NCBI RefSeq assembly: GCF_025526975.1
Contig: NW_026515668.1
Coordinates: 1,860,001-1,924,000 of the forward strand
From: Fimicolochytrium jonesii
Lineage: Eukaryota
Direction of reading: 5' to 3'
DNA length: 64,000 nt
This document shows positions 1,853-60,277 of the stretch, in pieces (position 1 is the stretch's first letter; each line of letters begins with the position of its first letter). Made by a program: the position numbers and the translations under genes. Under the pieces are notes generated by a model. That model saw only the letters and a list, made by a program, of their open reading frames with translations. It was not told the origin of the DNA and ran no database searches.

Positions 1853-2584
1853 ACGGCTTACATATACCCACGCTCCTCTCTCCATAGCCTAATGCGGTTT
1901 GCCTTCGTCGCTTAATCACCTTCATGGAATCTGGCATTTCATCCCCTCATTACATAACACTAGTAGATAGAGATATCACCTAACTACCTTGTGATCTAGT
2001 CGTCTTCTATGTTAGTACGATATAGGTCATCCTTAGTAATGTTTACAGTCATCAAAGCAACTGAAAAGAAAGATATTGGTTTCGGAACACATTGCTGGGA
2101 ACTTCATGGGCACTCTGCGTGTGCATAAAATCAATGATCTAGGGGAGCGGGAGCGTGCCTGGGGAATGTTGGATGCTGGCGTTTGGATGGTCATGGTCGC
2201 CCCAGACTCGACAATACTATGACACTGGTTTGCCCAAGTTCGCAGCGTATCTGCGGCTATAACGCACCAGACATCTTCGCTCCCCCTTGATGTGCCGCGA
2301 AGGACAACCGCGCACATGCTGTCGACGCAAAATAATCGCAGCGACTACATCTTACCTCTAGACTACCTTGTATCTTTGAAGCCCTTCCTCGGTTTGCCCT
2401 GGACGCAGACGGCAGAGAGGAGGCTGTCGAAAACCAAGGAGTGACAGTGACGAGCCAAAGCAGAAAGGAAGAATAAACGCGTCACGTGAACGATTCCAGG
2501 AAACCTGATGTCCACCGTCCAGGTCCTTCTTGCTTCCTCCACCACAACCGTCGCTCACGACGACGACAAAGAGAACAACGAGAG

Positions 2585-5500
2585 ATGCCCTGGTTCGCAG
2601 AGACATCAGTCGCTCTCGGCGAGGACGAGCAATGGCACTCGCCCCTGTTCCATGCCTTCCTGGACGACGCACCGCACTCCACAACCGGTCATATCTCAAT
2701 AAGCGAGAGATCACTCAGCGACAATCTCCCCCCGATCGGAGGCGTCGTGCATCTGCCCGAAGTACAACCCCGGTCTGCGATCGTATGGAGACTGCTGGAT
2801 GATAGGAAGGTTTTGGAGATACGACGAATATTCTTGGCGTCTGCGGCAACGAGAGATCAGAATGCGATGGAGGAGGGCACAGTGGGGGACGTGGATGGGC
2901 AGGACGGGACGATCGCGAACGCGCGAAACTCGAATCGGCCGGTATACCTCGAAGCACCGGCGTCGCTGTTAAAGACGCCTAGTATAACTTTGGTTCCATC
3001 GGAAAGCTCCGCGAAATACTCGTTGCACATTGTTCTCGTGACGGAGACCGGCCGATTTTACCGCGCGATATTCCAGGGACCGGATTTCTTCTACGAGAAT
3101 GGATGGAGGAGACGGGAGATCAAGCGTTATCAGATTGTTGCGCTCTCGACACATCGTGGGGACGCTGCAGCGCGTCAAGTGAAGAAGCCACTGATGATGC
3201 AGTGCCCCAGTTTAGAAACTGTCGTTATTGGGTGCGCGAACGGCACGTTGATCAAAGTTACTACACCAGGCGAGCTTGGGGATAGCGATGATGATACTTA
3301 CATGGCGGACGAACCTAGACGGAATGTCTCTGGCTACGAGGAAAGAGAGCTCTTTGAAGCGGGGTATCTCGATAAATTCAAGTCGGCGTTCACACCGAAA
3401 CGGTGGGGATTCTCGCCTTTCAAGGCCTCTCAAACCCCGAGCGCGGCGCCAGAAGTAGATAACCCCCGGCAGCCGATCGCTCTGAACTCGATCGGAAAGT
3501 GGAGCTTTGTCTTATCCCGCGACCGTCAACTCCGCATTTGGAACCTTGAGAAGGGTACGAAATGGAAGACTATCAACCTCGCCGCCGAATGTGCAACCAT
3601 CAAGCCAAAAGTGCTGCGGGTTCCCCGAACGGCGAGCCAGAGCACCACTCTACCCCTTGCCGACTCCACGTCAGGGCACTACATCCAAGTCTTCGACGAG
3701 CAGACGTACGACGTACTACAGGATTTCGAGAGTTCGGGCACCGAATTTAAGCTCGCAATCTACCTGCCGCGCGCCGAAGAATCCGAGGGCTGTTTTGCGC
3801 TCTACGAAGGGAGGATGGATAATTTTGGTGAGCTGCAAGAGCTGGGGTTGTTGGGCATCGAGGATTTGCCTGGAAAGCCGGAACCCAAACAGCCTGAGAG
3901 GAACGAGCCGTTAGACGACGAAGCATCAAAGGATATTACTACCACAGAAGCACTCGTATCTGCAGGGTTGTTGGGTAACGAGCATTTGCACGATCCCAAA
4001 CACCCCGAGCCATTGGACGACGAATCATTGGTCGATTTCATCATTAAGGAAGAGGTGACAGCTGCGGAGGAGACTAGATGGTCGCTTTGGGCCTTGTGGA
4101 ACGCGGCGCCGGGGCCTATAGCTCGATATGCTGAGATACGTCAGACAGGGTCTGCTGTTTATACGTACGCTGGGCCTACGCACTGGAATAATATTACGAA
4201 CGCGGATGGACCAAATCTCATTGGGCCGGTCTTCTATGAGGAGGTGCCTGCCTCGTTTGCAGAAGTCTCGGAAGCGTATCTGGACTTCATCTTCCACTCG
4301 AGATTTGTGACTGAAAAGGCGAAGCGGCGCGCGTTGGAGCAGTATCGAGAGTCTACGGGTGGAGTTTTCCTCGACAGTTCTCTGAACCAGAGCGGCTCGT
4401 CGTTGATCACATTGGAGGACGCAGTCTTATTTGCGGTGAAGCGGGCCTACGAACGTACAATCAAGCCAGCGAGGGGGGCCGAAAAACATGAGGGCCGAAC
4501 CGAGTGGCACAACTACTACAGGATGTGCCTGGAGATGTACGCCCAAGAAAACGCACCAACGGCAATCGACTGCGAAGCGTCCTACGGCTCGCTGATCATA
4601 ACCAAACGTGAGTCACTCTCAGTGGTCCGCGAGTACGACATGTCTCAGATCCTGGTACACTGGCTCGTCAGCCCCCTTGCCACCTCTATAACAATGGTCA
4701 GAACGGAAGATGAGGCGGATTTCTACCAGGAGTTCCGCGGTACGGGCATAGGAGACCACTTTTCGTCGACGTTCCAATCGATCATAGCGCTACTTAAGGA
4801 CGAGATACCCGCATCGAGACTTCTTGAGCTAGACGCTGCTATCCAGGAGATCATGCCTGATATCGGTCCGCATATTTTCGACAAGGACCAGGCGGTTCCG
4901 AAAATGATTGAAAAACTTTTCGAGTTTCCTCTGACGGCTGAGGGGCCTGAAGTGCCCGAAGACTTTGGCGACCGCGGGATGCCTGAGCAGAAACCCGAGG
5001 AGAAGAAGAAGAGATCCGAGAAACAGATCTTCGATGAGTTTGTGAGGTGGTTCAACTTCCTTCCCTCCGACTTCTTGGGCAAACTCCTTGATCTACTCCA
5101 TGGCGTTGATGGAGATCCGGCCGCGTCGAGCACGCTTTCTCAAGTCCCCAACACCAGCGCCTTCACCAACCGATTGCTCGCAAAATCATTCGCCGATGCA
5201 GTCAACTACAAGAAGGAATTGACGCGCGGCGTTTTGCTTGTATCGCTCCTCTCTAAGCATGTAGCGAAGAAAAACCCGGGGTTGCAACGCCATGAGATTT
5301 CGGACCAGATGGTGTCTCGCAGCATACATGCCATGTGTGCGGCGATTGTCGCCAACTGGATCGGCGAAACCACCGTCACGGTCGGCAACACGAGTCCGCC
5401 GGAGCCGCAAACCGATTCGCATAGCATGGATTTCGATCTCGGCCGCTCTCACTTTGGCCAAAGTAGTCAGCGCCATGCTTCCCCCAAGGCCATCACAGGC

Positions 5501-8500
5501 AAGATGCGGAATCTCACTCTCAGCAGGGCGTCAGACGCGCATGAACTCGTTGAGAAGCCTACGATGGTGGAGCCATTAGCCTTCCATTTGATTCAACAGC
5601 ACTATATGCTTGACGTCGATTTCAATGTAGGAGACTACGGCCAACTGCTTCGCGACGCAGTCCCGCGGTTCCTTTCCCGCCTCGGCCTGCTCTCCAAAGA
5701 TTTCACGTTCGCAACAAGCTCGGAACCCATGCTCAAGTTGGTGACCAAGCTGGTCGCGTTCAGACACGCGGAAGCGGCCCGGCAGCTTGTTAATATGCTG
5801 CCGGGAACTCCCGCTGTGAATTATCTGAAAGGCCGCGTATCGGCGGAATTGGGGGATTGGGAAGAGGCAGACACTTGTTTTGCGAAAGCAGTGTTCGGCA
5901 GTTTCGGTATGTCGGACTATGTAAATGGAAACTTTTGTGCCATTGAGGCGCACTAGCTCACTCTGCGGTTGTTCCCAGACAGGACGGAGAACTGGAGAAA
6001 AGATGCGGCCCTAAAGGAAGTCCTGCCTGCGGGAGCGGTTGAAGAAGGCATTGTGGGGGTGTACAAACATTTCATGCATTTATGCCGACGAGGCCACCAC
6101 CGGGGCGTCGTCAAGTACGCGAAGGAGGCGTTGCTGTGTATGAGCGATTTTCCAGAGGTAAGCCTGCAAAATATATTCTCTTGCATCTTGCATTGTCCGA
6201 AAGGTCACTGACGAAAGTGCATTCTCATCCTTCTCCTCAAAGGACCAAACCGAGCAGGTTACTCAGATCTGGAAGGAAATCTTCCGGTCCAGCCTAGAGA
6301 TCCCGGATTATGGGGAAGCACTCGCTGCGGCAGTCAGGAACCCCGACGAGCAGATGTAGGTCAATTGGACAAACCGCTGACGTCTTGATCAGAAGTCAGA
6401 CAGCCTCTGACACTTTTGTTTCCGCAGCAAAATCACATGCGTTCGTCGCCTGATCGGCCGCATGTGCGAGACGGGAGACATCAAAGCTCTATGCGGATTC
6501 AATGTCGGCCGTTTGCAGGACGAGGTCGAGATCGAATTGGCTAACAAAGCTCGCACGACGCCGGTTGAGCAGTGCCTTTCGGGCGGACCGAACTACTATC
6601 AGATTTTCTATAGCTACTGTGTGACTCATGGGGACTTCCGAACAGGTGAGTGTCGGAACGTGATCGTTTTCAGCGCTGCGGACTCCGTGCTTAATTCAAC
6701 ATGATGTAGCCGCGAGTGCTATGTACAGCTACGCGCAAGCGATCAACGCATTGACAAGCCGAATCACCGGAGGAGGAACCGGCGTGAGCTTGTTGACCGC
6801 ACTTCAACAACAGTGCGGGGCTTATTTGGCTGTCCTCAACGCTTTATCGTCTGTTGCGACCGAATATGCCTGGATTGTTGTCCCTGTGAAAGATGACAAA
6901 AGCAAAGTCGTAAGTGCTGAAATTGACTTGGTGACCACTTCCGACATACTTTGACACCAGATTATACAGAGCAAGCGCAGAAAACTGGATATCCCAGGCG
7001 ACGGTAAACAACCCATCAAGCAGCAAAGGATTACAACAAAGGTTCTGCAACCCGACGATGTCCGCAAAGAGTATCTGCTCTGCTTGACCAGGTTGAACCT
7101 GTACAACTCGTCCGCCGCCCTCCATCAGAGAACCATTGTCGGCCTGCCGAGTCCCGAAGATGCCCTCGCGCTCTATGTCGATGCAGGACGCCACGATGAT
7201 GCACTTAGCCTTGGACGTATATTCGAACTCGATCTGACGAAGGTCTTCGAAGCAATGGCCGAAAAGTGTGCGTTCCTCAGCACCCAGCCCCCTGATTTCA
7301 ACACGAACGACAGCATTGGGGAGAGTCTTACGGATGACCCGCGTGTGGATTGGGAAGGCACTTCTGCCGACAGAGCTTGGCGGACGTTGAATGAGTACCT
7401 GTTGGAGCACGACACTCCTCGCACGGGCTATGCTTACAGGTCTGCAGTGATCGACCGCGTGCTGCAAGTTCATCGCTCGTTCCGCATTCCCAAAGCGTGG
7501 ATTACCTCGTTTTACGATACACGGAATCCGGATGATCTGATTCGCGTGTACCTGAAGCATGATTTACTCGAGGAAGCTGCTTATTTCGTCTCCGACTATG
7601 TCAAATGTCAAGAAAAACTCCTGAGGGCACGGAAGACCGCGGGACGACCCTTGGATACTGCAAGCCGGCCGAAGTGGTTGCCTTACTTGCTGATTGATCA
7701 AACGATATACGAGCTGAAGAAACGTGGCTTAACGGAAGTCGCCGAAAACCTCGCAAACGCGGTAGCGAGCTATCTGAGACTGATTACGGGCGAAAGCGAG
7801 GAGGCTCTCGGTACAAAGTCGGCGGCTAAGCGCACAACAAACCTGACTGGCAAGAACGTCAGGTTTGAGCCCGATGTTTCTGAGAGAGTTCCGACCAAGT
7901 CCCAGCTACCGCAAAAGGTATTTCCAACGCAACCGAAGCACCCCCTGACGCAGACGCCGTCACAGCTGTTCTTCGAACAGCCGACGGAAGCAGCAAAGCC
8001 TTCGGCACAGCAAACTGCTACTCAACCGAAAAAGGCACCTTTGGCCTTTGGAAGCCCACCGACTTCAATCGATGACCTCGATACGACGACGGTGCCAATG
8101 GACACATCGGAAGCAGCCGACTCATCGCCACCCGCGGCGCCTAGATTCTCGTTCGGCCCGCAGGCATCAAAGGCAACGCCCGCCTTCCCAACGACAAAAC
8201 CCGCGCCGTTTGCATTTGGGTCAGGCCCGAGTGCCTCCGCACCATTCGCACCAACGAGCAGCTTCGCCCCATCTTCCCAAGCCCCACCTGCGCCATCAGC
8301 TCTGATGCCAGCCGCACCTTCATTCGGCTCAGCATTTGGATTAACTGCCGCCCCTGGCCAAGAGACTCGGAAAGCTCCCCCACCATCACAGATTACGGAT
8401 GTTGAGACAGGCGAACAGCTACCCCAATCGCCCGTGCCGGCGAAGAGACAGAAGAAAGTCGGCGTGCCCACCTTTGGATCAGCCTCATCCCTCGCAACGG

Positions 8501-11500
8501 ACAGTGGCTTCACCCGTGCACCAACTTCGTCGCAAACCCCGGCGTCGTTTCCAACCAGTACTTTCGGTTCGAGCCCGGCCCCTTTGTTCGGTAGTAGTGC
8601 CAGTGTGTCAGCACAGCAATCAATAGCACCTGCAATCGGTACACCACAACCCTTCGCATTTAGCACCGGCGTTCCTTCGGTGACCGCTGTCCCTGACAAG
8701 CCGAAAGCACCTGCAGCATTTTCCCTGGCTAATTTCGGAGCCAGTCAACCGCCTTCCGCGTTCGGCGCCTCGAAGAGTGCTGACCCACCAAAACTTACAC
8801 AGCCACCCATCTTCGGGGGCGTCTCTAGCTCGGAGCCCGCCGTTACCAAAACAGCTACTGCCCCGCCACCCACTTTCGGAGCTGCGTTTGGATCCAACTC
8901 CGCCTCGAGTGGAGGTTTCAGTTTTACACCTGCTGCTTCGCAACCGGCCAAGGCCTCTGCGTCGACGTCAACCGCTGGGTTTGGTTCATCGCCGGCACTG
9001 TTCGGTGCTTCCGCTGCGGCACCGGCATCTCCGTTCGGCGCGGCTCAGTTCGGCGTATTCAAGCCCGCTGACGACACTGCCAGACCGGCCGTCTCGGCGG
9101 CTCCTGTAGCGTTTAGTTCATCGCCAGCAGTGTTCGGCGGTGGGAAGCTCGCGGAGACCGCAAATGGGTCCATCAAGACTTCACCTGCGGCGTTTACATC
9201 TACGTTTGGCACGGCTCAATTCGGCGGAATCAAGCTGGCAGACAATACGGTAAACACTTCCGTCTCGGCGCCTCTTGGGTTTGGTTCGACGCCTGCACTA
9301 TTTGGTGCTGCGACGCCCGCAGCGACGGCGCAAGATCCTTTTATGACTTCACGTGCGGCATCTACGTCGACGTTGGGTACGCCTCAGGTCGGTGGATTCA
9401 GACCTGCAGAGCCAACTTTCGGGGCAGTTCAGGGTTTCGGTGGATTCAACCTCCCAGGGCCAGCACGTCAAACTGCTTTTGGGGTTCAGGCCTCCGGTGC
9501 GTTCACACCCGCAGAACCAGTGGATGAATCTTCCAAGAATCCCGGGTCAGCAGATGAATCGGCGTCGGCGCCTTCATTGTTCGGATCGGCTCAACCTTTC
9601 CGCGGTTTCAAAATACCTCAATCAATAGATCAGTCGGCCAACACCCCGACGTCAGCGCTTTCATTGTTTGGTTCTCCTCAGACTCTCGGCAGTCTCAAGC
9701 CTCCGCAGTCAGCAGATGCGCCGGCCAAGAGCTTGAACCCGGCGCCGCCATTGTTTGGGACTGACCAGACTTCCGGCGGTTTCAAACCTCCACAGACAAC
9801 GGAAGAACCACCCAAAGCTTTGGTTTCAACGCTCGGAACGACTCAGGCTTCCGGCGGTTTCAAGCCTCTGCAGGCAGCTGAAGAAGCAATCAAACCGTTC
9901 ATTCCAGCGTCCGCAGCGGCTCAGATATTCGGGTTCAAGCCACCGCAAGCAGCAGAGGATCCAGCCAAACCGTCCCTTCCAGCGTTTGGCGCCGGCCAAA
10001 CTTCTGAAGCCTTCAAGCCCGCAGAAGCAGGAGAAGAGCGACCCAAAACCTCTATTCCAGCGTTCGGTCCCTTTGGGGGGTCCAAGCCGGCAACGTCGGT
10101 AGAGGAGCTGTCCGAAAGCTCTACTTCGACCTTCGGCTCTTTTGGAGGGTCCAAGCCGGCAGCGTCGGCAGGGGACTTTTCCAAAACCGCTGCTTCAACC
10201 TTCGGCTCGTTTGGAGGATATACGCCTGCAGCGTCAGGAGAAGGGCAGCCCAAACCCTCTCTTCCAGCCTTTGGATCTCAAGGATCTAAACCGGCAGCGG
10301 TTGAGGAGCAGTCCAAAATCCCTGCCCCAGCGTCTGGCACGTCTCAGGTTTTCGGTGGATTCAAGCCCATCCCGGACTTCTCGGCGAGAATTGTTCCAAC
10401 ATCCAGTTTTGGCGGCGTCCAGGTCGGTTCCACCGACTCCGCCGTGCCGAGTTCCCCACCAACAGAGACGAGGGCTGAGATGCATGACGATGAGGGGGAT
10501 TCGGAGACCGCCACATCTGACCCAGTAGCAAGGTCCACCCCCTTCGGCGCTGGTAACTCTGGCCTTGCACAGCCTTCCGGAATGTTTTTCGAGCCCCAGT
10601 CGGAAGAGCAAAGCGTCCCTGAACCAGCAGCGCCCAACTCAGCTCCACCGCCTAGGTTTGGGACCTCCACTGGTGCACCTTCCACATCAGCGCAATCTTT
10701 CGGAGCTGAGAATTCTGCGTCGAAAAATGATGTTTCTGAATCATTAAGGACCGTTATGACGCCTGCAGGCGTTTCGGAAAAGGCTTTAGCAGAGGAAGCT
10801 CCTGGTAGCGATATCTCCGCGCCTGCGAGCTTCACTGCTCCACTGGAGACGATGGCTCCACCTACCGGTTTCCAATTCAAGGTCCCGCATCCTGCGTCGC
10901 GCCCCTCTGGCATCGCATCAGCCGCGCCCATATCCGTTGCATTTGCTGGATTTGGGAACCAAACGGTCACACCAGCAACGTCGCAGACCGCGGCTTCAAA
11001 TGCCCCCGGTGCATTCAGTGGGTTCGGGAGTGGATCAACGGTTGCCCCGGCTTCCACGGGGCAGGTGTCGTATTCGCCAAAGTTTCCAGCGGCAACTCCG
11101 AGCTCCACAGGCTCAGGGGTTGGCTTTGGTGTTTCTAGCCAAACGCAGCCGTCGAGCTCAGCGCCGATTGCTATCTCCAGCTCGTTCAAACCAGCAGAGA
11201 CAATTTCCGGATTTGAAGCAGCCGCGCCCTCCACGTCCAAGAGTGAAGAGTCACTAGAAGACGAGGACGAATACGAAGACCCCCCAATCCCGGTCTCGTC
11301 CGCATCACCCACGAAAGGTAATGCTTTGCTCTTTACGAAGCCATTAGGGTTTGGCACGGGGTTCACGTTCGCTCCAGCGCCCATCCCCTCACCTCCGAAC
11401 CCATGCTCATCCGCCGCCTCATACTTAGCCACGCCGGCGTCGTCTTCTACCCCAAGAACATCAACCACATCGGTTTCGGGCGTAACGACGAGCACTCCGC

Positions 11501-12321
11501 TTGCAGAGGCGGGGACACACCCGGCTTCGATGGGATTCGCGCCGCTGTCGCATGCGTCGACGGTTTCGGCTTTTGCGAGTGCGTCGGACCCGGAGCTGAA
11601 CAGAAACTCTCCCAGGCCCATCAAGGTTACGAAGGGATTCCAGGCGGCTGCGTTGCCGGGGACGGCGAGTCCGCTGGCTTCACGTGATGGGTTTGGAGAT
11701 GCGTCGGAGGCGCCTGTCGAACCTACCCCTTCTGCGACGGCACCTGCGTTTTCATTCGGGTTTGGGTCCGGAATCGGGGCCGGGCCGGCTGATTCCCAGG
11801 CGCATACCGCGCATGCAGCGTCAACCCCTTCATTCGGGTTCGCAGCCCCGCAACCTAAAGCAGCAAGCAGCCCCCCACAGTTCACGTTCGGAATGTCCCC
11901 TGCTGCCGCCACGCCGAAGGCGGGAACAAGCTCAGGCTTCAGTTTCGGATCGACACCCCTCGGGTCAACGCCTACCAGCACCACTTCGCAAGAAGCAGCG
12001 TTCGGTACCACCGTCCCCCCGCCCAAATTCTCTTTCGCGCCAACGAACAACCCGGCTGCGTCGTCCACTCCGTTCACATTCACGCCCTCGACGAGCGCGG
12101 CATCGAGCAGCACGCCGCTCACGTTCAATTTCGCTAAACCGGTCACCGCTACGGAGGAGGATGACAATACCGCGTCGACTTCGGCTTGCCCACCAGCCCC
12201 GGTCCCCGCGTCCCCGCCACGGTATGCAGACCATGCGGATGCGGAGAGCGAGGAGGTGTTTGTGCCTGTGACGAGGGGCAAGAGGGGGAAGAGGAAGAGT
12301 GCTAGCCCGGTTAAGGAATGA
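2585..12321 (+). CDS. NUP160: Nucleoporin Nup160/Nup120 with a very long C-terminal FG-repeat extension
   Basis: Exons 2585-5906, 5979-6157, 6243-6355, 6428-6645, 6710-6909 and 6961-12321 keep frame. Nup160-like motifs LSRDRQLRIWNL, NYYQIFYSY..HGDFRTAASAMY and WLPYLLIDQ, followed by ~1,450 aa of FG/FSFG repeats. Confidence 0.85.
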
Positions 12322-17029: not shown

Positions 17030-17254
17030 TGTGGATGTTTGGCGGAGAGGTTGGGCGGGGCTGCTGAAAAGGTGGAAGGTCAGTTCCCAATGCTGTCCCA
17101 ATGCCAAACAACTTCCGGACAAAACAACCTGAGGCCCCCATCGCACACTTCGACCTGCAGTCCATTCGCACAACTCAGGAACGGACTCCATCAGCACAGC
17201 AGAGGGGCCCACAAACACAGACACTCACCTTCACCAGGAACGCTTCCACCAGAA

Positions 17255-19560
17255 TGTCGGCCTTCCCCACCAACAAACCATCGCCACAACCAGCCTCAAC
17301 GAGGACGACACCATCCGCTCAACAAACGACGACGCTTCCATCTCTCCGACCTCGCGTACAATAGGTTATAAGCCCTGCTTGCGAAGCCGAATAGATCTAA
17401 GGTTTAGTTTCGTACAAAGAAATAGTAGTAGTAGTGGAACCATCGCCACGGGTGCCCCATCGGCGGCCCCGTCGGCACCCGATCTCGCAGATCCCTCACT
17501 CGATCCCTCACTCGATCCCGCACAGCAGATCACACTGCAGAAGCGCACACGGCGCGCACGGCACGCAGAGCCGCAGAGGAATACAAGGAGATCAGAAACC
17601 GGGGGAGACATCGGAGGGAGCAGAAGAAAGGATGGGGCGGTACGAAGAAAGGCTTGTCACGCTGGAGAAGGCCACTCTCACGCTGGAGAAGGCTAGGGAA
17701 GATCACAGAAGGTTCATGGAAGATCAAAAAAGGATGCTGGAAGTCATCATGAGGCAAATTGCACGGCTCCAAACCGCAGAGGAGAAGGAAGCGGACGGAA
17801 TTCTGGAGAAGGAAATCGTCGTACCGAGAAAGAAATTATGCCCACGCCCATCGCTCCTTGCAGGCTGTGCGGCATCACCGGGCACTGGACCAGAGCCTGT
17901 CCTGAACTCGAAGCTGCGAAAACATACTTGAGAAGCGGAACACCAACGAAGAAAAAAGAAGCCGAAGCGAACCTCGTCCTCGGTACCCCCCGCAACGAAG
18001 ACCATAGTATCGCGCTCAACCCGCGCACCTTCAAAGCCGATGCCGAACGACACTGCGAAACGAAGATCAAAGAACCTCGCTGCGATAACGGAGGAAACGG
18101 AATCGCCGAAAGGTTGAACCGCACGATAGCAAATCAAAGCTCGCACCACCATACAGCACACCGGGAACGTACCCAACCTCCGCAACGAAATAGCGTTCAC
18201 GGACTACCTGCGTCAGCGCACACCGAGTGCTGCTACGAACGAAGCGCCGTACCGAGAATGGCTGCGCAGCGCACACCGAGTGCCGCTCCGAACGAGACGC
18301 CTTACCAACGAAAATGCATGGAGGAGAAGCCGATATCTCGAATCAACTGTGGTGCGAAGCCTACCTACAAATCCCGTCATGTTACCTTCAACGAAACGAT
18401 CGAAATCTTCGAATCCCGCGATATGACCTTCAACGCAGCGCATTATCGAAGCGCAATTACTACCGACGTAGACGTTGAACATATCGAAAAGAAAATCCTG
18501 CTTTCGCGCGGCGCTCAAGGCGACCTGCTCGGCGATGGGGTTTTGGGGGAGAACGAGGAAGAAAGAGCGCACGTTCGAAGCGCAACTACCGATGACAAGG
18601 ACGGCGAAATCGTACTACCGGCTATCAACGCAGACACGTCCGAGATCCTCAACGCAGCGCAAGTTCGAGGCGCACCTACCTACCGGCTATCCAACGAAGA
18701 AACGATCGAAATCTTCTCATCTCGCGATGCGGCTATCAACGAAGCGCACGCTAGAAGCGCAGAGAAGAACCACGAACGAAGCTCGGCACCTACCGGCTAG
18801 TCAACGAAGCGCTAACAGTAATGTGGTTGAACCACGAGTCGAACACCAGATGCACGTCATGGGGTATGCGAAGACGCTGCATTCGTCCATCAACTATCCT
18901 GCGAGAGTGTCTCTGCGCACCAACTACTGAAGACAACGACGCCGACGAAGATGGCGAAATCGTACTACCGGCTATCCACGAAGAAACGTTCGGGACCGAC
19001 GAAGAAAAAGCGCAGGTTCGAAGCGCACCTACTGACGACAACGAGGGAAGGTAAAGCGCACGTTCGAAGCGCACCTACCGACGACGACGCCGACGACGAT
19101 GGCGAATACAATATCGAAAAGATCCTTCTCTCGCGCTCGAGACGACTCGCACGGCGACGGGGATCGGGGGAAGAAAAAGGAAGAAAAAGACACGAAAAAG
19201 GGTTATCGTCGCCCCCGTACACGACGCAGGAGAGCGTACAACATACGCACGCGAATGGCACGCGAAGCGCGCAAGAAATGAAACACAACATCGGGCACGA
19301 AACGGTCGACTCGAAATACGACATCCCGTACCTTCCGAAGCCCGCGCTTGCCCATCTACGGTCGCTACAAGGGATACATCCCCCCGAAAACGAAACTCCG
19401 TGAGAGAAACGTTGTATATGCACGAAAGAAGAAGAAGAAGCGCAGATCTGAAGAAAAAAGGAGGAGAAGCGCAAATCTGAAGGAAAAAGGTGGCACGAAG
19501 CCGAGCGCCGGAAAAGGGAGCGATGTTGGTCAAGTGAAAAATGTTGACTTCACCCCTACG
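17255..19560 (+). mobile_element. Decayed, internally deleted Ty1/copia LTR retrotransposon
   Basis: Copia-type PBS-like sequence ACA-ATAGGTTATAAGCCC at ~17358-17375. Coiled-coil gag-like ORF; zinc knuckle CRLCGITGHWTRAC; integrase fragments RCDNGG/NGIAERLNRTI and SRHVTFNE; RNase H-end-like LAHLRSLQGI; purine tract GGAAAAGGGAGCGA followed by TG at ~19510-19525. Boundaries are approximate. Confidence 0.8.
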
Positions 19561-19570
19561 CTGTCGGAGG

Positions 19571-19700
19571 TACAGTCAGTTATCAAAAAGCTGTGCACCC
19601 CCCTGAAATAAATCAGCGACTGCCGTAACGCCAAATTCACGTGAGGACCGACATTGATTTCAATTAGAGGGGGTGCACAGCTTTTTGCTAACTGACTGTA
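19571..19700. mobile_element. Tc1/mariner-type MITE (TA target-site duplication, ~31-bp TIRs)
   Basis: Left end TA-CAGTCAGTTATCAAAAAGCTGTGCACCCCC; reverse complement of right end TA-CAGTCAGTTAGCAAAAAGCTGTGCACCCCC (1 mismatch). No coding capacity. Confidence 0.9.
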
Positions 19701-20509: not shown

Positions 20510-21836
20510 CTACTCCCGTTTCCTATGAGCAAGCCCACAAATTGCCGCTGTCTCCAATACAATATCCTCAATATCCCCTGTTCCATACCCGCCAAACCAA
20601 ACGCCCTTCCCCACGCCAACCGTCTTCCTCCACCACTCCCTGTACACGATAATAATCGTATCCGCCGGCGCCGCAACGCGCGTATCCACCGCTCTGGCTC
20701 CATACGCCAGATTCTGCTGTAACCCCCTTAGCATGTCATAGTCTTCCTGCAGGACGCGTTTGTTGAAGCGGTGCAACCACCACGCGAAGAACCATTTCAA
20801 TGGCGGGAGGAAGCGGAAGAGGAGAGATGAGGACGGGTCGGGAATGAATGGCATGCGTTGGAAGTAGATGAAGCGGCAGTGGCCTTTGCGGGTGGGGACG
20901 GCGTAGAATGTTTGGTCGAAGGGGCGACGAGGTTTTGTTGGTACTCCTGCTGTTGAGACTTTCTTTGGCACGCGGGTGAACCCGAGCATGATCCCGCACG
21001 GCACTCGGAACTCAAAGTCGACTATTGTCAGATCGGGGCGGTCGGCGGTGACTGGCCGGCATCGGACGGAATCGGTGGTGAAGCGGACTTCGGTGATAGT
21101 CATTTGTGTGGCGTTGGAGCGTTTCGAGATTGTCGTGTCGTGGGTGAAGGGGAGATGCGCTGGGTCCAGGAAATTCTCAACTAGTAGGGAGCTGCAGAAA
21201 GAGGAACGCATTAGCGAATCGCTGGGATTTTGCAGAGATTGGGATACCACGACTCACTGGTCAATATCCAAATCCACATATCCGCTCCACGCCGAAAACT
21301 CATCCTCCCTCCCTCCCATAAGCCGCACCCCAGGCTGCCCGCCATCATCAACCTTCTCCGCCTCCCCCGGCCAAATCCACACCCACTCGTTCGCCTCCCT
21401 TATCGGATACTTCCGAATCTCCACATTAGGCAGTTTGGCGTTCGCCGCCGTGGACGGCACGACGACACACTCCCCGGCGGAATCGTACTGCCAGCCATGG
21501 TATCTGCACTCGAGATTGCCGTTCATGATTCGCCCGGACGACAGCGGCGCGGCGCGATGCGGGCACCGGTCCTCGAAGGCTATGACTTCATGTGTGCTGG
21601 GGTCGCGGTAGATGACTACTGGATCACCCTTTTCGCGGCTAGGGTCAGTTACGGGTCAGACGCGGAAGTCGGGGGGATGGGCTTACCCAGATGTGGTGTT
21701 TGGCGGGTTGGGAGGATGACACCTCGGAGGACGGGATTAACGGGTACCAGTAGTTGCGGACATTGTGCTGGATGTCAAAGAATGCTGCCCGACCTATGCT
21801 TGTGTTGGAGGAGGAGGGGTCGGATGTCGGCGACAT
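20510..21836 (-). CDS. Rieske [2Fe-2S] non-heme iron oxygenase, pheophorbide-a-oxygenase-like family
   Basis: NYWYP, DRCPHRAAPLSSG..LECRYHGWQY (Rieske cluster), ENFLDPAHLPFTH (mononuclear Fe site), VLQEDYDML; two introns. Confidence 0.9.
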
Positions 21837-31061: not shown

Positions 31062-32621
31062 ACTCGCCTGAATTGGGGTTCTGAATGTGGGTGTCCGCCT
31101 CACCGATACTCTTCACGCTCGTGGGTGTCACCTTCCGGCGACCCTCCCTTGTTGAACATACACCCCACCTGGCCCCTATCTATCTATCACCACACCTTGC
31201 ATAGACAGTATAGACTTATCACCACGGACTTCCATCAGTCGTATCTATCATATGTATTGCAGCATCCATTCTATCACTTATTTCCTGCTTCTTTATACAC
31301 ATCATCATTATGCTATCTTTACCATGTGTCGGACGATGCTATCGGAATAATCAATGGGAGGTCCATTTGTCGTGCGCGAGCTTTACATGCCTCTCTCGTC
31401 TTACCGGCCACTGCTGCAAGGCCTCACTTGACCAAGGCGGTGACATCCGAGGAAGACGCGTCCCCTTTTCAGAGACGGAGATGCATTGCATTAACATACC
31501 AAAGCACATCACCCATCTAGTTTCCGAACATAGATGACAGGACCAAGTTCGTTCGGCTATTGCCGTGCTTCAAGCGGGATGCAGCATCGTGCTGAGCACA
31601 TGGGCTCAAAGTATCGGCATCCCGCCGGGGCGGCCCATCCCCGCTCTTTATGGACTGCGGACGGGCATACGACTCGGCCTGGGCAGGCAAGCGGGTCTTC
31701 AAACATGGCCCCCGAAACAAGCCGAAGCGTGGCGACTGCAGCGACACGGACGTCCTCGATGCTATGGGCAAGACCCCGGGAGGCAACGAAGGCCGAGGAA
31801 GTCGGTTTTATCTTTCTCTCCCAAACGTTCTCGGAATCGAATCCACTTTCGTTTGAGCGGATGTGGCGCAGTCTGAGCAAATGACGCGCACTTTTCGACA
31901 GCGCGTTGCAGAGTTTGGATCATTCCGTGGTTGGTTTCAGTGCCCCGCGTTTCAGAAGCCCCCCCCCGCGCCGCACACGCAGAGCTATTAAACACCCCCC
32001 TTTGACCTCGATCGCAGAGTCCAATGGAAAACGAGCCCTGTGGGCAGAGGAAACACAGGGGATGCAAAGGTGGGCAAAAATGGGGTCGTTGAGGACAGCG
32101 CGGATGCCGGGAGGGGGTGGGGGCGTTTCAGTTCAGAGGGACGAGCGACCAGTCACGGACGAAAAGAAGCTGGGTAATAAGAGGAAAAAAGCCGGCGGTA
32201 ATTATTACGGGTGGGGAATAATACAGTATGATGAGGAGAGTCCCCCCTTGCGCTTGCTCACAGATCAAACGTGTTGCAGGTTTCCGTGACATATTACTAC
32301 CGGGATTCCCATTCCATCTGTATTGCATTTGAGGCCGTAACTGTCCCGCCGCCCTGTGCCTCTTTTGCTTATCGCATCGTATATAACCGCCACGGCCCCA
32401 CGCAACTCCCCACCCCCTCGCCGCCCTCGAACGCCACCCTCCCTCTTCGCATCATTCCCTTTCTTCTTTCTAAAGGAATCTCATTCTCTTTGTAATAAGA
32501 GGACCTTCGACCTTTGGTTTCCTTCGCCGACGACGACGACGAACGAACGACGAACGACCGCGCGCATACAAGCGGACACAAACACTACTCTCGCTTTCCT
32601 TTCTATAGACTTTAGACAAAA

Positions 32622-33569
32622 ATGGTCAAGCTCGCCCTTATCGTGACCTTCGCTGCGCTGTGCGCTACCGGTGTGTTTGCAGACCCACAGAATGGCCGCC
32701 AACGAGGTGGGCTTGCCCGTGGTGGTGCTGCACGACAACAGCAGGCCGCTGCCGCTCGTGGTGGTGCCGCTCGTGGTGGTGCAGCTGCTGCTGGTGGGGG
32801 TCAACGTGGCGCCGCCGGTCGTGCTGCCGCCGCCGCTCGGGCGAAAGCAGCAGCAGCTGCCGCAGCCAAGGGCCAGGGCAAGAACAACAACGCCGGCAAT
32901 GCAGGAGCGGGAGCAGCTGCGCCTGCTGCTGGGGCTGGGGCCGCCGCCCCCCCTGCTGCCAAACCCGAACCCGCGACCCGCATCACCGAAGTCCCCATCA
33001 CCCAATTCGCCACGGCCCCCTTCTGCGGCGCATCCAACCTGACCCCCTCCGACGGCACACAGATCCGCACGGGCGCCTGCTCCTCCACCGCGCTCGGCGC
33101 CATCCCGGACGTTTCAAAGATGGTCAGCACCATCATCACCTCCCCCGCCAACCTGGCCGTCATCGACGCGACAAAGGACACCCTCGTCGCCGTCGACATG
33201 CTCAACCTCGACACGGGTTTCTTCGCCGACCCCAACAAGCATTACAACCAGCAGCCGCAGACGCTCAACCGCAACGGGATCACACAAGGTCACCAGCACA
33301 TCTCCGTGCAGCCCTTGGTCTCGGGCACGGCCGCGCCGGACCCGACCAAGTTCGCGTTCTTCAAGGGCTTGAACGACGAGTCCAAGAACGGAAAGACATT
33401 GACGGTCACGATCCCCGCGGGAACGTTCAAGACCAACGGCGTGCATCGGATGTGCTCCATGTCTGGAACAGACGCACACCAGCCGCCCATTATGCCCGTC
33501 ACCCAGCGTGGCCCGCAGGACGACTGTATCCGTGTCACGGTGCAGAACGCTGGTGGGGCCGCCGCCTAA
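32622..33569 (+). CDS. Secreted fungal protein with Ala/Gly/Arg-rich N-terminal region and a Cys/His-containing globular domain
   Basis: Intronless 315-aa ORF. Signal peptide, AARGG repeats, GTQIRTGACS, GHQHISVQ, FAFFKGLND, QRGPQDDC. Confidence 0.8.
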   Translation: MVKLALIVTFAALCATGVFADPQNGRQRGGLARGGAARQQQAAAARGGAARGGAAAAGGGQRGAAGRAAAAARAKAAAAAAAKGQGKNNNAGNAGAGAAAPAAGAGAAAPPAAKPEPATRITEVPITQFATAPFCGASNLTPSDGTQIRTGACSSTALGAIPDVSKMVSTIITSPANLAVIDATKDTLVAVDMLNLDTGFFADPNKHYNQQPQTLNRNGITQGHQHISVQPLVSGTAAPDPTKFAFFKGLNDESKNGKTLTVTIPAGTFKTNGVHRMCSMSGTDAHQPPIMPVTQRGPQDDCIRVTVQNAGGAAA

Positions 33570-53637: not shown

Positions 53638-54258
53638 CTAATCCCCCTTCTTCAACGGGATGATGGAATCCCCATCGCCATACAGCAGCCTCTGCGGCAA
53701 CTGCTCAAACTCCACAGACCCCCTATCCCCGTTCAACTTGACCACCCACGTCACATCAAACCGCTTCTTATCCCATACCGGCACCAGCTCCTCCTTGACC
53801 CCCAATGCTTTCACAATATCGCTCATCATCTGATGACACCACGACACCAGTACCGTCCTGCCCTCATACTCCCCCCCACCGCCGCCCAACAATTTCCCAA
53901 CCATCTCCTTCACCAGCGCCTTCCGGTACGTCACAAACGGCACCACACCTTTTATTCCCTCACTCTCCGCAAACGGCAGCACAGTCTCCTTCGGCCGCTC
54001 CGACTTGCCAAACCCGTCGATATCGTCCACGGCCTGTGCGATGATCCCGCCCCACGGCCGCTCGGCGACCAGAGAGGTGATTTCGGAACGGCGGTGGAAA
54101 TAGGGCACGAGGGCTTGCGCGCGCTCGTAGCCTTTTGTGGAGAGGATGTGGTTGTCAATGTAGGCGGCTTTGATGTCGGAGGAGGGTTTGAGGCCGGAGT
54201 GCCACGGCAGCTTCTCGGCGTGGCGGATGAGGAGGATGGTTGTGTTGGGGAGAGGCAT
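53638..54258 (-). CDS. Histidine phosphatase (phosphoglycerate mutase-like) superfamily protein
   Basis: Intronless. LLIRHAEK, LSTKGYERA, RPKETV, VSWCH, QRLLYGD. Confidence 0.85.
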   Translation of the reverse strand: MPLPNTTILLIRHAEKLPWHSGLKPSSDIKAAYIDNHILSTKGYERAQALVPYFHRRSEITSLVAERPWGGIIAQAVDDIDGFGKSERPKETVLPFAESEGIKGVVPFVTYRKALVKEMVGKLLGGGGGEYEGRTVLVSWCHQMMSDIVKALGVKEELVPVWDKKRFDVTWVVKLNGDRGSVEFEQLPQRLLYGDGDSIIPLKKGD

Positions 54259-54523
54259 GGCTTTTTGGGACGAGTGGAGGGGGCTGGAAATGCGCTCGAT
54301 TGGGTGGCTCCTGAGGGAGTTGGTGGCGGACTGTGAGCGTAGTGTGTATAGTATATGCAGCAAGTGCGTGCTAGTTGCTATTCGTTCGTGGGCTGCTGTG
54401 TGCGAGGGGGTTCAGCTGGGTCCAGGGGAAGGGAAGGGAACGCCAGAAAGGCCTCCGATGCCCCTCCGATTCCGCCCATATTCCCCCAACGTCCAAAAGC
54501 GCATTACGTTCTCCCGCAAGCAC

Positions 54524-58297: not shown

Positions 58298-58796
58298 CTA
58301 CCTCCATGTTGTGCAGTTATTGGGAACGAAACCCTTCACGGTCCCAGAGGGAATCGTGAACCTGATGGGCACCCTATGTGGTCAAACGTTTTCCTGGGTC
58401 AGCCGAGCGACGACGGGTGACGGTGAAAGGCAAACGTGGGGAGATGTGGTGGACGGGCCACTCACCATTTGTCAGTTCCCCCGCACCGTCCGTTGAACCC
58501 TCCCCTTTGCCACTGACATTGCGCTCCCCAGCAGAGCGAGCATTGGCCCTTCTGGAGGGTGCCGAACAATCTGCCGTTGTCGCTCGGTGAGGCGCGCACT
58601 TGAAGCCCGCTGATGTTGGAGCATGCTCTAGTACTGGGTGGGTCCATTGACGAATTACGGGATGGGAGAGAACAAGCCAAGCCGTTAGGCGAACGGCTTT
58701 GTCGTTGTGGTGGTTTTGGTGACTAGGAAGACAAACTTACGCAGCCGAGGCGCTGGTCGCCAGACAGACGGCGACAATCAGGGCGGAAACCTTCAT
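58298..58796 (-). CDS. Small secreted six-cysteine protein, SH3b-like (paralog A, 99 aa)
   Basis: Exons 58796-58741, 58633-58466 and 58373-58298 give MKVSALIVAVCLATSASAATRACSNISGLQVRASPSDNGRLFGTLQKGQCSLCWGAQCQWQRGGFNGRCGGTDKWVPIRFTIPSGTVKGFVPNNCTTWR. Confidence 0.85.
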
Positions 58797-59783
58797 GGGT
58801 AAGGCGAGCAGCGGGAAGTCTCCTTGGAGTTGGTTTGAGACACTGGACGATGAGACAAGGTGGGGAGAAGCAACTGACTTCCTTGCACTCTTATATACAC
58901 CCCTTATCAACCCGCAGCTTACTGTACATTACAGTTGCTTGCCGCCGCGAGGGTGGGAGAGCTTGAGGGGGCGGTTCCCAGTTGGAGGGATCCGGCGGGA
59001 TCCTGTTGTGAGCCAGAGATCAGACATTCATGGCATTCGGGTGTCCCCTGATAGAGCCTCGATTCCATGATTTCCTTGCGTGCAAATGTAAAAGCGAGTT
59101 GCAATGCTCCAATAAGGTTTGTGCGCGAATGGACACCGGCTCGTGGATGGAGTTTACGCCTCGTTTCGCCGGAACATGTCTACGGCAAGACCCCGCGCCA
59201 ACGAGCGTCTTAAGGCGCAGAACACATCCATCCCGACTCGGTACAGTAAGTCCCGACCTAAAGTGTGCGAGTGTCAACGACGGTGGAGACACGGTGCCTT
59301 GCGAACAGAGGTCATCTTTGCCTGCGGCGGACACTCTGTCGCGATCTGGTCGACGCGCTCTCCCATCTTCGCTGCCTGGTCTCCAAGATGCTTCCTTGAA
59401 TCCCATCACTGCTCGGGCTGTTCAAACTGCTCAGGAAGGGTGTTGGGAGGATTCTGGGCGTGGGTTTTGGGTTATCCTAAGGACCCTCCTGGTTCTGGGT
59501 GACCACCCAATTCACAGATTTGAACTGCGGCCAGTTACACCCCTTCACTGTCTGAATACAGAGTCCAACATCCCACCGCCTCAATCAACCGGTGAAACGA
59601 TGGTGCTGGTCTACTCGTCTGCCATGGTTAGTTCGTATTGTGTATCGGTTGATTCTGTAAACTACTGTACGTAGGTATGTATGTCACTTCGAACCCGCCG
59701 TGTCTGACTCCAGGTGCCTATCTATTGCTCAAAGGTGAACTCTCCCCCGATTCTCTATGATTGTCCGTGACGGATCCGCACAA

Positions 59784-60277
59784 CTACCAATTCACGCAAG
59801 CAGCGGGAACCCAACCCTTGGCCGTGCCCGAAGGAAACGTCATCTTGATAGCGACCCTGTGTAAACGGTGAATTGGATCAGCGTGCGCCTAAGGGGGGCG
59901 GGACACGAAGGCCAACATCGGGCGAGGCCTCGGCCTATACTTGCCATTCGTTCCCGCTCGTCCCACATTTATTGTAGTGTCCATCGTTGACCCATCGGCA
60001 AGCGTCCCCCCAACACGTCTTGCATTGGCCCTTCTGCAGCTGTCCGAGCCTGGTGCTGCCGGTGTTGGATTTGGCGTATACGAGAAGGTTGTCGTGTTGA
60101 GAGCAGGCTCTGGTGCTGAGGGCGGCGGGATTAACGGAGTGACACCCAGGATGGAAGCAAGCACAATCAACATCATCTCTCTTCGTTTTGTGAAATCATG
60201 AAGCGAGGGAGGATTACTTACGCAGCAGAGACGCCGGTGGCGAGGCACGCGGCGGCGATCAGAGCTGTGACCTTCAT
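59784..60277 (-). CDS. Small secreted six-cysteine protein, SH3b-like (paralog B, 99 aa; GC-AG second intron)
   Basis: Exons 60277-60222, 60115-59945 and 59856-59784 give MKVTALIAAACLATGVSAATRACSQHDNLLVYAKSNTGSTRLGQLQKGQCKTCWGDACRWVNDGHYNKCGTSGNEWVAIKMTFPSGTAKGWVPAACVNW. Confidence 0.82.

What the first reader, a model, noticed from the sequence alone, without database searches (positions are those of the whole stretch)
58298..60277. Tandem pair of unannotated 99-aa secreted six-cysteine proteins with a bacterial SH3 (SH3b)-like pattern
Seen in sequence: two paralogs missed by the ORF track, with identical length and intron positions, signal peptides and six aligned cysteines. Both fit the pattern L.V(R/Y)A.....S/G...G.L.KG....W..I....G..KG(W/F)VP. 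Established knowledge: that pattern resembles SH3b/SH3_3 cell-wall-binding domains of bacterial peptidoglycan hydrolases. Inference: disulfide-stabilised stand-alone SH3b-like proteins, possibly bacteria-binding or antimicrobial effectors, diversifying after duplication.
Basis: partly seen in the sequence, partly recalled or inferred. Interest (0 to 1): 0.7.

Follow-up and report, generated by a model that had tools for sequence, protein, structure and literature searches.

The report
Bacterial wall-binding mini-proteins in a chytrid
A chytrid fungus carries two neighbouring intron-containing genes for small, likely secreted, cysteine-rich proteins predicted to fold like bacterial cell-wall-binding (SH3b) domains; their closest relatives are an unstudied family of stand-alone proteins in soil actinomycetes, so they were likely taken from bacteria and would act by sticking to bacterial walls.

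Summary
Observation essentially confirmed. Two three-exon minus-strand genes each encode a 99-aa protein with a signal-like leader and six aligned mature cysteines (51/100 identity, dN/dS 0.38). One intron is GC-AG. Gene A matches a mis-started public model of Fimicolochytrium jonesii; gene B was not found in the protein collection; two more paralogs exist elsewhere in that species. AlphaFold2 on gene A gives a confident all-beta domain whose 22 best structural matches are all proteins of bacterial, phage or bacteria-type cell-surface/wall systems (Z up to 9.9), ahead of eukaryotic SH3 (Z 5.9 or less).

New here: the nearest relatives are not hydrolase modules but a family of stand-alone, leader-bearing, four-cysteine SH3b-like proteins of filamentous actinomycetes (30 loci read here; Longispora 33% identical). 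No other eukaryote was found. Transfer from actinomycetes is likely (about 0.7) but tree tests cannot fix the donor. Function is untested: peptidoglycan binding that hinders bacteria, as reported for Bacillus IPHG88, is the best guess (0.4). No RNA evidence was obtainable. The scan's earlier notes hold only SH3b-lysozyme fusions in Naegleria, not this family.

The parts
58741..58796 (-). Gene A exon 1: start codon and hydrophobic signal-like leader
   Evidence: hydropathy
58634..58740 (-). Gene A intron 1, GT-AG, 107 nt, phase 2
58466..58633 (-). Gene A exon 2: N-terminal part of the SH3b-like domain with five Cys
58374..58465 (-). Gene A intron 2, GT-AG, 92 nt, phase 2 inside the invariant Trp codon
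58298..58373 (-). Gene A exon 3: last beta strands, sixth Cys, stop
58891..58897 (-). TATATAA box about 100 nt upstream of gene A's ATG (candidate promoter)
   Evidence: 11 such matches in the window against 5.65 expected, so suggestive only
60222..60277 (-). Gene B exon 1: start codon and signal-like leader
60116..60221 (-). Gene B intron 1, GT-AG, 106 nt
59945..60115 (-). Gene B exon 2
59857..59944 (-). Gene B intron 2, non-canonical GC-AG, 88 nt, at the same codon as in gene A
59784..59856 (-). Gene B exon 3 with sixth Cys and stop

Best explanation
These are two paralogous chytrid genes for small, likely secreted proteins predicted to fold as a single disulfide-stapled SH3b domain, likely acquired from filamentous actinomycetes, that would bind bacterial peptidoglycan without cutting it and so likely hinder competing bacteria. 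Shown: intron-containing gene structure, open frames, six aligned cysteines, purifying selection, host-like GC3, at least four paralogs in the species, and a family of stand-alone four-cysteine relatives in actinomycetes. Predicted: SH3b fold (about 0.9) and three disulfides 23-50, 53-58, 69-95 (from paired presence and absence of cysteines). Inferred: transfer from actinomycetes followed by intron gain and expansion (about 0.7); secretion, binding to wall peptides, and competition with the bacterium's own SH3b-anchored wall hydrolases, giving division defects as proposed for Bacillus IPHG88 (about 0.4 overall).
For: Fold: AF2 pLDDT 87-95 over the mature region; VIA-align top rows 3pvq Z 9.9 rmsd 1.4 over 63, 8b2s Z 9.3 rmsd 1.9 over 63, 8b2g Z 9.2, with lysostaphin SH3b at Z 7.2 and the first eukaryotic SH3 at rank 23, Z 5.9; Atlas model of paralog P0037 matches SH3_3 proteins and 107- and 117-aa actinomycete clusters at TM 0.74. 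Relatives: of 120 HMMER hits, the 4 single-domain ones are three F. jonesii proteins and Longispora P0099; 8 of 8 scanned among the other 116 have SH3_3 as best family, 3 of them with wall-hydrolase domains. Actinomycete family: 32 of 301 genomes of Longispora's family and 4 of 401 of the phylum sample match; 30 of 32 loci read have exactly four Cys in the domain and end right after it. A chytrid-only profile ranks 20 four-Cys actinomycete domains (30-59 bits) above all 40 canonical SH3b (28 or less) and both CWBD-type domains (19 or less). Tree: chytrid plus four-Cys family split from the rest at 97/96 and 88/88. GC3 0.71, within the range of neighbouring long ORFs 0.62-0.76. Net charge +5 to +8 in all four chytrid proteins. 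Precedents: stand-alone secreted SH3 IPHG88 kills C. perfringens (PMC12282325); isolated fungal SH3-like CWBD binds Micrococcus cells (PMC10394673).
Against: No activity, binding or expression data. Pfam SH3_3 scores of the chytrid proteins (15-16 bits) are below the cut-off of 27 and Foldseek gave no match at E 0.001 or better. AU tests do not reject chytrid plus CWBD-type as one clade (p 0.43) nor the actinomycete family as a clade without the chytrid rows (p 0.28 and 0.53): neither donor nor nesting is shown by the tree. The actinomycete set was found with profiles that held chytrid rows, which favours it. 71 of 111 actinomycete relatives are net acidic, which does not fit a shared cationic wall- or membrane-attack mode. 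The bacterial genes have no conserved neighbour such as an immunity gene or hydrolase among 57 flanking frames scanned, so context gives no functional support. The long inserted loop could change the ligand. Other chytrid genomes were not searched as DNA.
Confidence: 0.4

Rival explanations
1. Same fold and origin, but the proteins bind bacterial walls without harming them: they tether or agglutinate bacteria at the rhizoids, mask wall fragments, or guide separately secreted muramidases for feeding on dead bacteria.
For: SH3b domains are usually targeting modules, not toxins; PMC10394673 suggests fungal CWBD enzymes serve feeding on dead bacteria. No catalytic domain is present. IPHG88 needs about 39-57 ug/ml and is described as the first such case.
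Against: In PMC10394673 mixing the free CWBD with the free catalytic domain did not restore activity, so guiding in trans is doubtful. No hydrolase gene lies beside the pair.
Confidence: 0.25
2. The SH3b scaffold has been repurposed: the disulfide-tied inserted loop binds a protein or a non-peptidoglycan polymer (for example it inhibits a secreted enzyme, or coats the organism's own spore or cyst surface), in actinomycetes and chytrid alike.
For: The most conserved family positions lie in and around the inserted loop (Gly63 113/115, aromatic 112/115, Cys69, Gly70 113/115, Cys95 115/115), which canonical SH3b lack (alignment). Charge ranges from -10 to +12. Producers are themselves Gram-positive, with no conserved immunity neighbour. 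Structure matches include teichoic-acid binders (8alu, 7qeh).
Against: All top structural matches are wall-associated bacterial-type domains; loop conservation can be purely structural (disulfide geometry).
Confidence: 0.25
3. The genes did not come from the four-cysteine actinomycete family: they are detached copies of a fungal CWBD-type SH3 module (GH24/GH184/NlpC type) and the cysteine resemblance is convergent.
For: Fungal CWBDs are among the best structural matches (Z 9.2-9.3, tied with the top); an Ascomycota 73-aa SH3b cluster ranks third by Atlas features; AU test does not reject chytrid plus CWBD-type (p 0.43).
Against: CWBD-type domains (L034 matches 8b2g at E 1e-11) score only 16-19 bits with the chytrid profile against 59 for Longispora; the family profile finds no 8b2x chain at E up to 10; the Longispora protein shares four cysteine positions, the inserted loop and the last five residues with gene A.
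Confidence: 0.1

Closest known systems
IPHG88 of Bacillus velezensis (PMC12282325; passages and section 18 read)
   Same: Secreted, about 9 kDa mature, single stand-alone SH3b domain with a lengthened Src loop; purified by cation exchange.
   Different: Bacterial; activity measured (narrow, C. perfringens).
[quoted passage not shown]
   Same: Fungal, secreted, disulfide-bonded SH3b-type domain; Z 9.2-9.3, rmsd about 2 over 63-64 residues.
   Different: Fused to a catalytic domain; two disulfides (Cys9-53, Cys33-72) in a different pattern; a separate sequence subfamily; described from ascomycetes.
Bacterial SH3_3 (PF08239) modules of autolysins and NlpC/P60 peptidases (2kq8, 3pvq, 9ovi), also in A. 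fumigatus CwhA (PMC12332128, passages) and Trichomonas NlpC (PMC6299479, search listing only; PDB 6bim)
   Same: Core motif and barrel.
   Different: Usually repeated and fused to hydrolases, without the inserted cysteine-tied loop; chytrid proteins fall below the Pfam cut-off.
Unnamed stand-alone four-cysteine SH3b-like proteins of Longispora, Glycomyces, Micromonospora, Plantactinospora, Actinosynnema, Saccharothrix (e.g. WP_157641134.1)
   Same: Leader plus one domain, inserted loop, cysteines at positions 58, 69, 95, invariant Trp; 33% identity over 82 aa with Longispora.
   Different: Annotated only as hypothetical or SH3-domain proteins; four instead of six cysteines (chytrid paralog P0047 also has four); intronless; mostly acidic.

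Membership tests
SH3b (bacterial SH3) fold | Open beta-barrel superposing on solved SH3b domains better than on eukaryotic SH3 | tested here: met
   Predicted model of gene A: Z 9.9/9.3/9.2 to SH3b-type chains, 5.9 or less to eukaryotic SH3. Gene B's spliced product was not folded.
Pfam SH3_3 (PF08239) | Score at or above the curated cut-off of 27 bits | tested here: not met
   P0003 16.3, P0037 14.8, P0047 15.2 bits; B exon 2 no hit; the Longispora relative passes with 30.3.
SH3b (bacterial SH3) fold | Binds peptidoglycan or another wall polymer | not testable with these tools
   Needs a binding assay.
Fungal CWBD of GH24/GH184 muramidases | Fused to a wall-hydrolase catalytic domain | tested here: not met
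   Both genes stop 3-4 codons after the last Cys; paralogs are 104 and 124 aa.
Fungal CWBD of GH24/GH184 muramidases | Sequence subfamily with Cys9-Cys53 and Cys33-Cys72 pattern | tested here: not met
   Family profiles do not retrieve 8b2f/8b2g at E up to 10, whereas a CWBD-type bacterial domain does at 1e-11; cysteine spacing differs. The tree test alone is inconclusive.
Actinomycete stand-alone four-Cys SH3b-like family (defined here) | Leader plus single domain with inserted Gly-aromatic-Cys-Gly loop, invariant Trp and C-terminal Cys | tested here: met
   Alignments; profile built from bacterial rows only scores the chytrid domains 31-50 bits.
Horizontally acquired gene (actinomycete donor) | Eukaryotic rows nested inside the donor clade with alternatives rejected | tested here: inconclusive
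   Grouped with the family at 97/96 but AU p 0.28-0.53 for non-nested and 0.43 for CWBD alternative.
Horizontally acquired gene (actinomycete donor) | Integrated in the host genome, not contamination | tested here: met
   Spliceosomal introns, host-like GC3, flanked by ADF/cofilin-like and GHMP-kinase genes; paralogs recorded on contigs of three different lengths.
Stand-alone antibacterial SH3 peptide (IPHG88 type) | Inhibits bacterial growth as an isolated domain | not testable with these tools
   Needs MIC/MBC assays.
Secreted protein | Cleavable signal peptide | tested here: inconclusive
   Lys at position 2, hydrophobic core (9-residue hydropathy up to 2.9), small residues before the mature start; leader dN/dS about 0.11. 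No predictor run.

The most novel reading that the evidence does not exclude
A chytrid took from soil actinomycetes a whole, previously unrecognised class of non-enzymatic antibacterial proteins (disulfide-stapled stand-alone SH3b domains that jam peptidoglycan remodelling), added introns and a third disulfide, and expanded it into a small defensin-like arsenal with paralogs tuned to different wall types; the large actinomycete family would be an overlooked bacteriocin class.
Probability: 0.25. Interest if true: 0.8.

Novelty: new variant of a known kind. Interest (0 to 1): 0.52.

Why it matters
Bacteria-to-eukaryote transfers of wall-attacking genes described so far involve enzymes. Here the transferred unit appears to be an enzyme-free binding domain, from a bacterial family for which my paper searches found no study. 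If it binds or inhibits bacteria it would extend the single reported stand-alone antibacterial SH3 (IPHG88) to a disulfide-stabilised family in actinomycetes and a fungus, and give a direct handle on how saprotrophic chytrids deal with bacterial competitors. The proteins are 80 residues and easy to express, so the question is directly testable. It also shows that small GC-AG genes are missed or mis-started in chytrid annotations.

Tried and rejected
No whole genome is held for the window, so family size comes from public protein records only (at least four). RNA run search: no RNA holder listed; this is no evidence either way. Word-based protein search with B exon 2 found nothing among proteins of 46-149 aa. 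Pattern scans of metagenome contigs (48 and 532 candidate stretches, none confirmed) and viral contigs (20 candidates, none confirmed) found no relative; these scans need close matches and are broken by introns. No 'longer' protein search was run, so fused forms were checked only through the length-free HMMER search and genome searches. Foldseek gave no hit at E 0.001. The public 151-aa start of gene A was rejected: it needs two CT-AC introns (0 of 36 exact solutions use only GT/GC-AG), has pLDDT under 50 and buries the leader. Third copy in the window or homology of flanks: none. Positive selection: not seen at pairwise level. Conserved bacterial gene neighbourhood: none among 57 frames scanned of 92 listed. 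Rows dropped: P0145; nine redundant rows from the trees, two long-branch rows more. Paper searches showed no paper on this family in their listings; PMC11291939 (HGT in early-diverging fungi) has no occurrence of 'SH3' in its main text, its supplements were not read and may bear on this. Earlier-findings look-ups by sequence and place were empty.

Full report
Gene models. The window is eukaryotic, intron-rich DNA of about 55% GC. On the minus strand two three-exon genes were built from splice signals: A at 58796-58741, 58633-58466, 58373-58298 and B at 60277-60222, 60115-59945, 59856-59784. Both encode 99 residues. Both introns are phase 2 and sit at the same codons in the two genes; B's second intron is GC-AG. 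The proteins are 51 of 100 columns identical (score 257, best of 2000 shuffles 29) with cysteines aligned at 11, 23, 50, 53, 58, 69 and 95/96. Codon-position identity falls 0.67, 0.64, 0.49; dS is about 1.17 and dN 0.45, so dN/dS is 0.38 (leader 0.11, mature 0.47). That is an old duplicate pair kept as protein. GC3 is 0.71 in both, within the range of six neighbouring long ORFs (0.62-0.76). The pair lies between an ADF/cofilin-like gene and a GHMP (mevalonate-type) kinase gene; there is no third copy in the window. No RNA run could be listed, so splicing is inferred from sequence.

Identity and family in the host. An HMMER search of 1.84 billion representatives with the exon-2 profile gave 120 hits; four match in a single stretch over nearly the whole profile. 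Three are Fimicolochytrium jonesii proteins and one is from Longispora albida. F. jonesii is a spizellomycetalean chytrid; that it is a manure/soil saprotroph is my recollection, not a call result. P0003 is gene A itself: it maps exactly onto the window, but only with two CT-AC introns and a 53-residue extension, so the public start is probably wrong. P0037 (104 aa, six Cys) and P0047 (124 aa, four Cys) are further paralogs. Gene B was not found among proteins of 46-149 aa.

Fold. Sequence evidence for SH3b is weak but consistent: Pfam SH3_3 at E 0.011-0.035, PDB 2kq8 at E 0.025 and 0.0007, Atlas feature hits to SH3_3 clusters at 0.94. The other 116 HMMER hits have 2-12 matched stretches; 8 of 8 scanned are SH3_3 repeat proteins, three with glucosaminidase or NlpC/P60 domains. 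AlphaFold2 on P0003 with eight sequences gives pLDDT 87-95 for the mature region, all beta. Foldseek lists SH3b domains first but none at E 0.001. VIA-align against 48,161 chains gives six rows at Z 8 or more, led by 3pvq (Z 9.9, rmsd 1.4, 63 residues) and the fungal CWBDs 8b2s and 8b2g (Z 9.3, 9.2); the first eukaryotic SH3 is rank 23 at Z 5.9. The Atlas's own model of P0037 (pTM 0.77) matches SH3_3 proteins and small actinomycete proteins.

The bacterial relatives. Profile searches added Actinosynnema and Saccharothrix proteins, then matches in 4 of 401 genomes sampled from Longispora's phylum and 32 of 301 from its family, up to four per genome. Of 32 loci read besides Longispora, 30 encode a leader plus one domain with exactly four cysteines, ending within 13 residues of the match; two are a different, fused type that matches the fungal CWBD (tested for L034). 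A last search gave 86 proteins of 4502 candidates; the named ones are Glycomyces, Micromonospora, Plantactinospora and F. jonesii P0037, most others are unnamed. Across 115 dereplicated domains, dominated by Glycomyces-like near-copies, Trp75 and Cys95 are invariant, Cys58 is in 111, Cys69 in 107 plus 7 one column off. Bacterial genes sit singly among varied housekeeping genes, with no conserved partner; the Longispora gene follows a GH20 gene.

Origin. A chytrid-only profile ranks 20 four-Cys actinomycete domains above every canonical SH3b and CWBD-type domain, Longispora first at 59 bits; a bacteria-only profile scores the chytrid domains 31-50 bits. Trees place the four chytrid rows together (94/94; 93/67) and with the four-Cys family (88/88; 97/96). 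But AU tests reject neither a sister position (p 0.28, 0.53) nor a chytrid plus CWBD-type clade (p 0.43), and the bacterial set was selected with chytrid-containing profiles. No other named eukaryote appeared, but other chytrid genomes were not searched as DNA and small genes are easily unannotated. I put transfer from actinomycetes at about 0.7.

Mechanism. There is no catalytic domain, so the protein must act by binding. SH3b domains bind wall peptides, and an isolated fungal SH3-like domain binds Micrococcus cells and triglycine (PMC10394673, passages and section 28). A stand-alone secreted SH3 from Bacillus, IPHG88, kills C. perfringens at 39-57 ug/ml, and its authors propose competition with wall-remodelling enzymes (PMC12282325, passages and section 18); it was the only paper with 'standalone SH3' and 'antibacterial'. 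All four chytrid proteins are cationic (+5 to +8), unlike most bacterial relatives (median -3). I therefore favour wall binding that hinders bacteria (0.4), against harmless tethering (0.25), a different ligand bound through the inserted loop (0.25), and a fungal-CWBD origin (0.1). None of this was tested.

Verdict. Real genes, SH3b fold, members of an unnamed actinomycete family of stand-alone cysteine-stapled SH3b proteins: a new variant of a known kind. Known eukaryotic SH3b cases are enzyme fusions (A. fumigatus CwhA, PMC12332128 passages; Trichomonas NlpC, PMC6299479 listing only), although the Atlas holds a 73-aa ascomycete SH3b cluster that may be stand-alone. Eight paper searches listed nothing on this family; the library lacks most subscription journals. 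Interest 0.52.

Noticed in passing
window 58638-58744 and 58860-58934, plus strand: The public model of gene A uses two CT-AC introns that read as canonical GT-AG introns on the plus strand, one shifted by 4 nt from gene A's true intron 1 and of the same length. This may reflect a spliced antisense transcript over gene A merged with the sense one, or an annotation artefact.
   Followed up: partly
window 59857-59944: GC-AG intron in gene B where gene A has GT-AG; likely why B has no public protein model.
   Followed up: yes
window 20510-21253 (minus): Rieske-type oxygenase catalytic part with Pfam VanA_C and pheophorbide a oxygenase hits (E about 1e-8), a family mostly known from plants and bacteria (recalled), in a chytrid.
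   Followed up: partly
window 32616-33569 (plus): Apparently intronless, GC-rich (0.66) ORF for a leader-bearing protein with an Ala/Gly-rich stretch and a cysteine-containing domain; no Pfam hit at E 0.01.
   Followed up: partly
window 53638-54411 (minus): Apparently intronless ORF with an RH-motif start resembling histidine phosphatases (recalled); no Pfam hit at E 0.01.
   Followed up: partly
window 17133-19575: Zinc-knuckle and repeated fragments resembling a decayed retroelement.
   Followed up: no
window 2477-12321 (plus): Very long nucleoporin-like frames (resemblance recalled, not tested) ending in about 1400 residues rich in FG repeats.
   Followed up: no
G465:C32:13577-14313: A bacterial genome also carries a tandem pair of the four-Cys family, and four matches in all.
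   Followed up: no
L001:2424-3911: The Longispora family member lies just downstream of a leader-bearing GH20 hexosaminidase gene on the same strand; not seen at other loci.
   Followed up: partly
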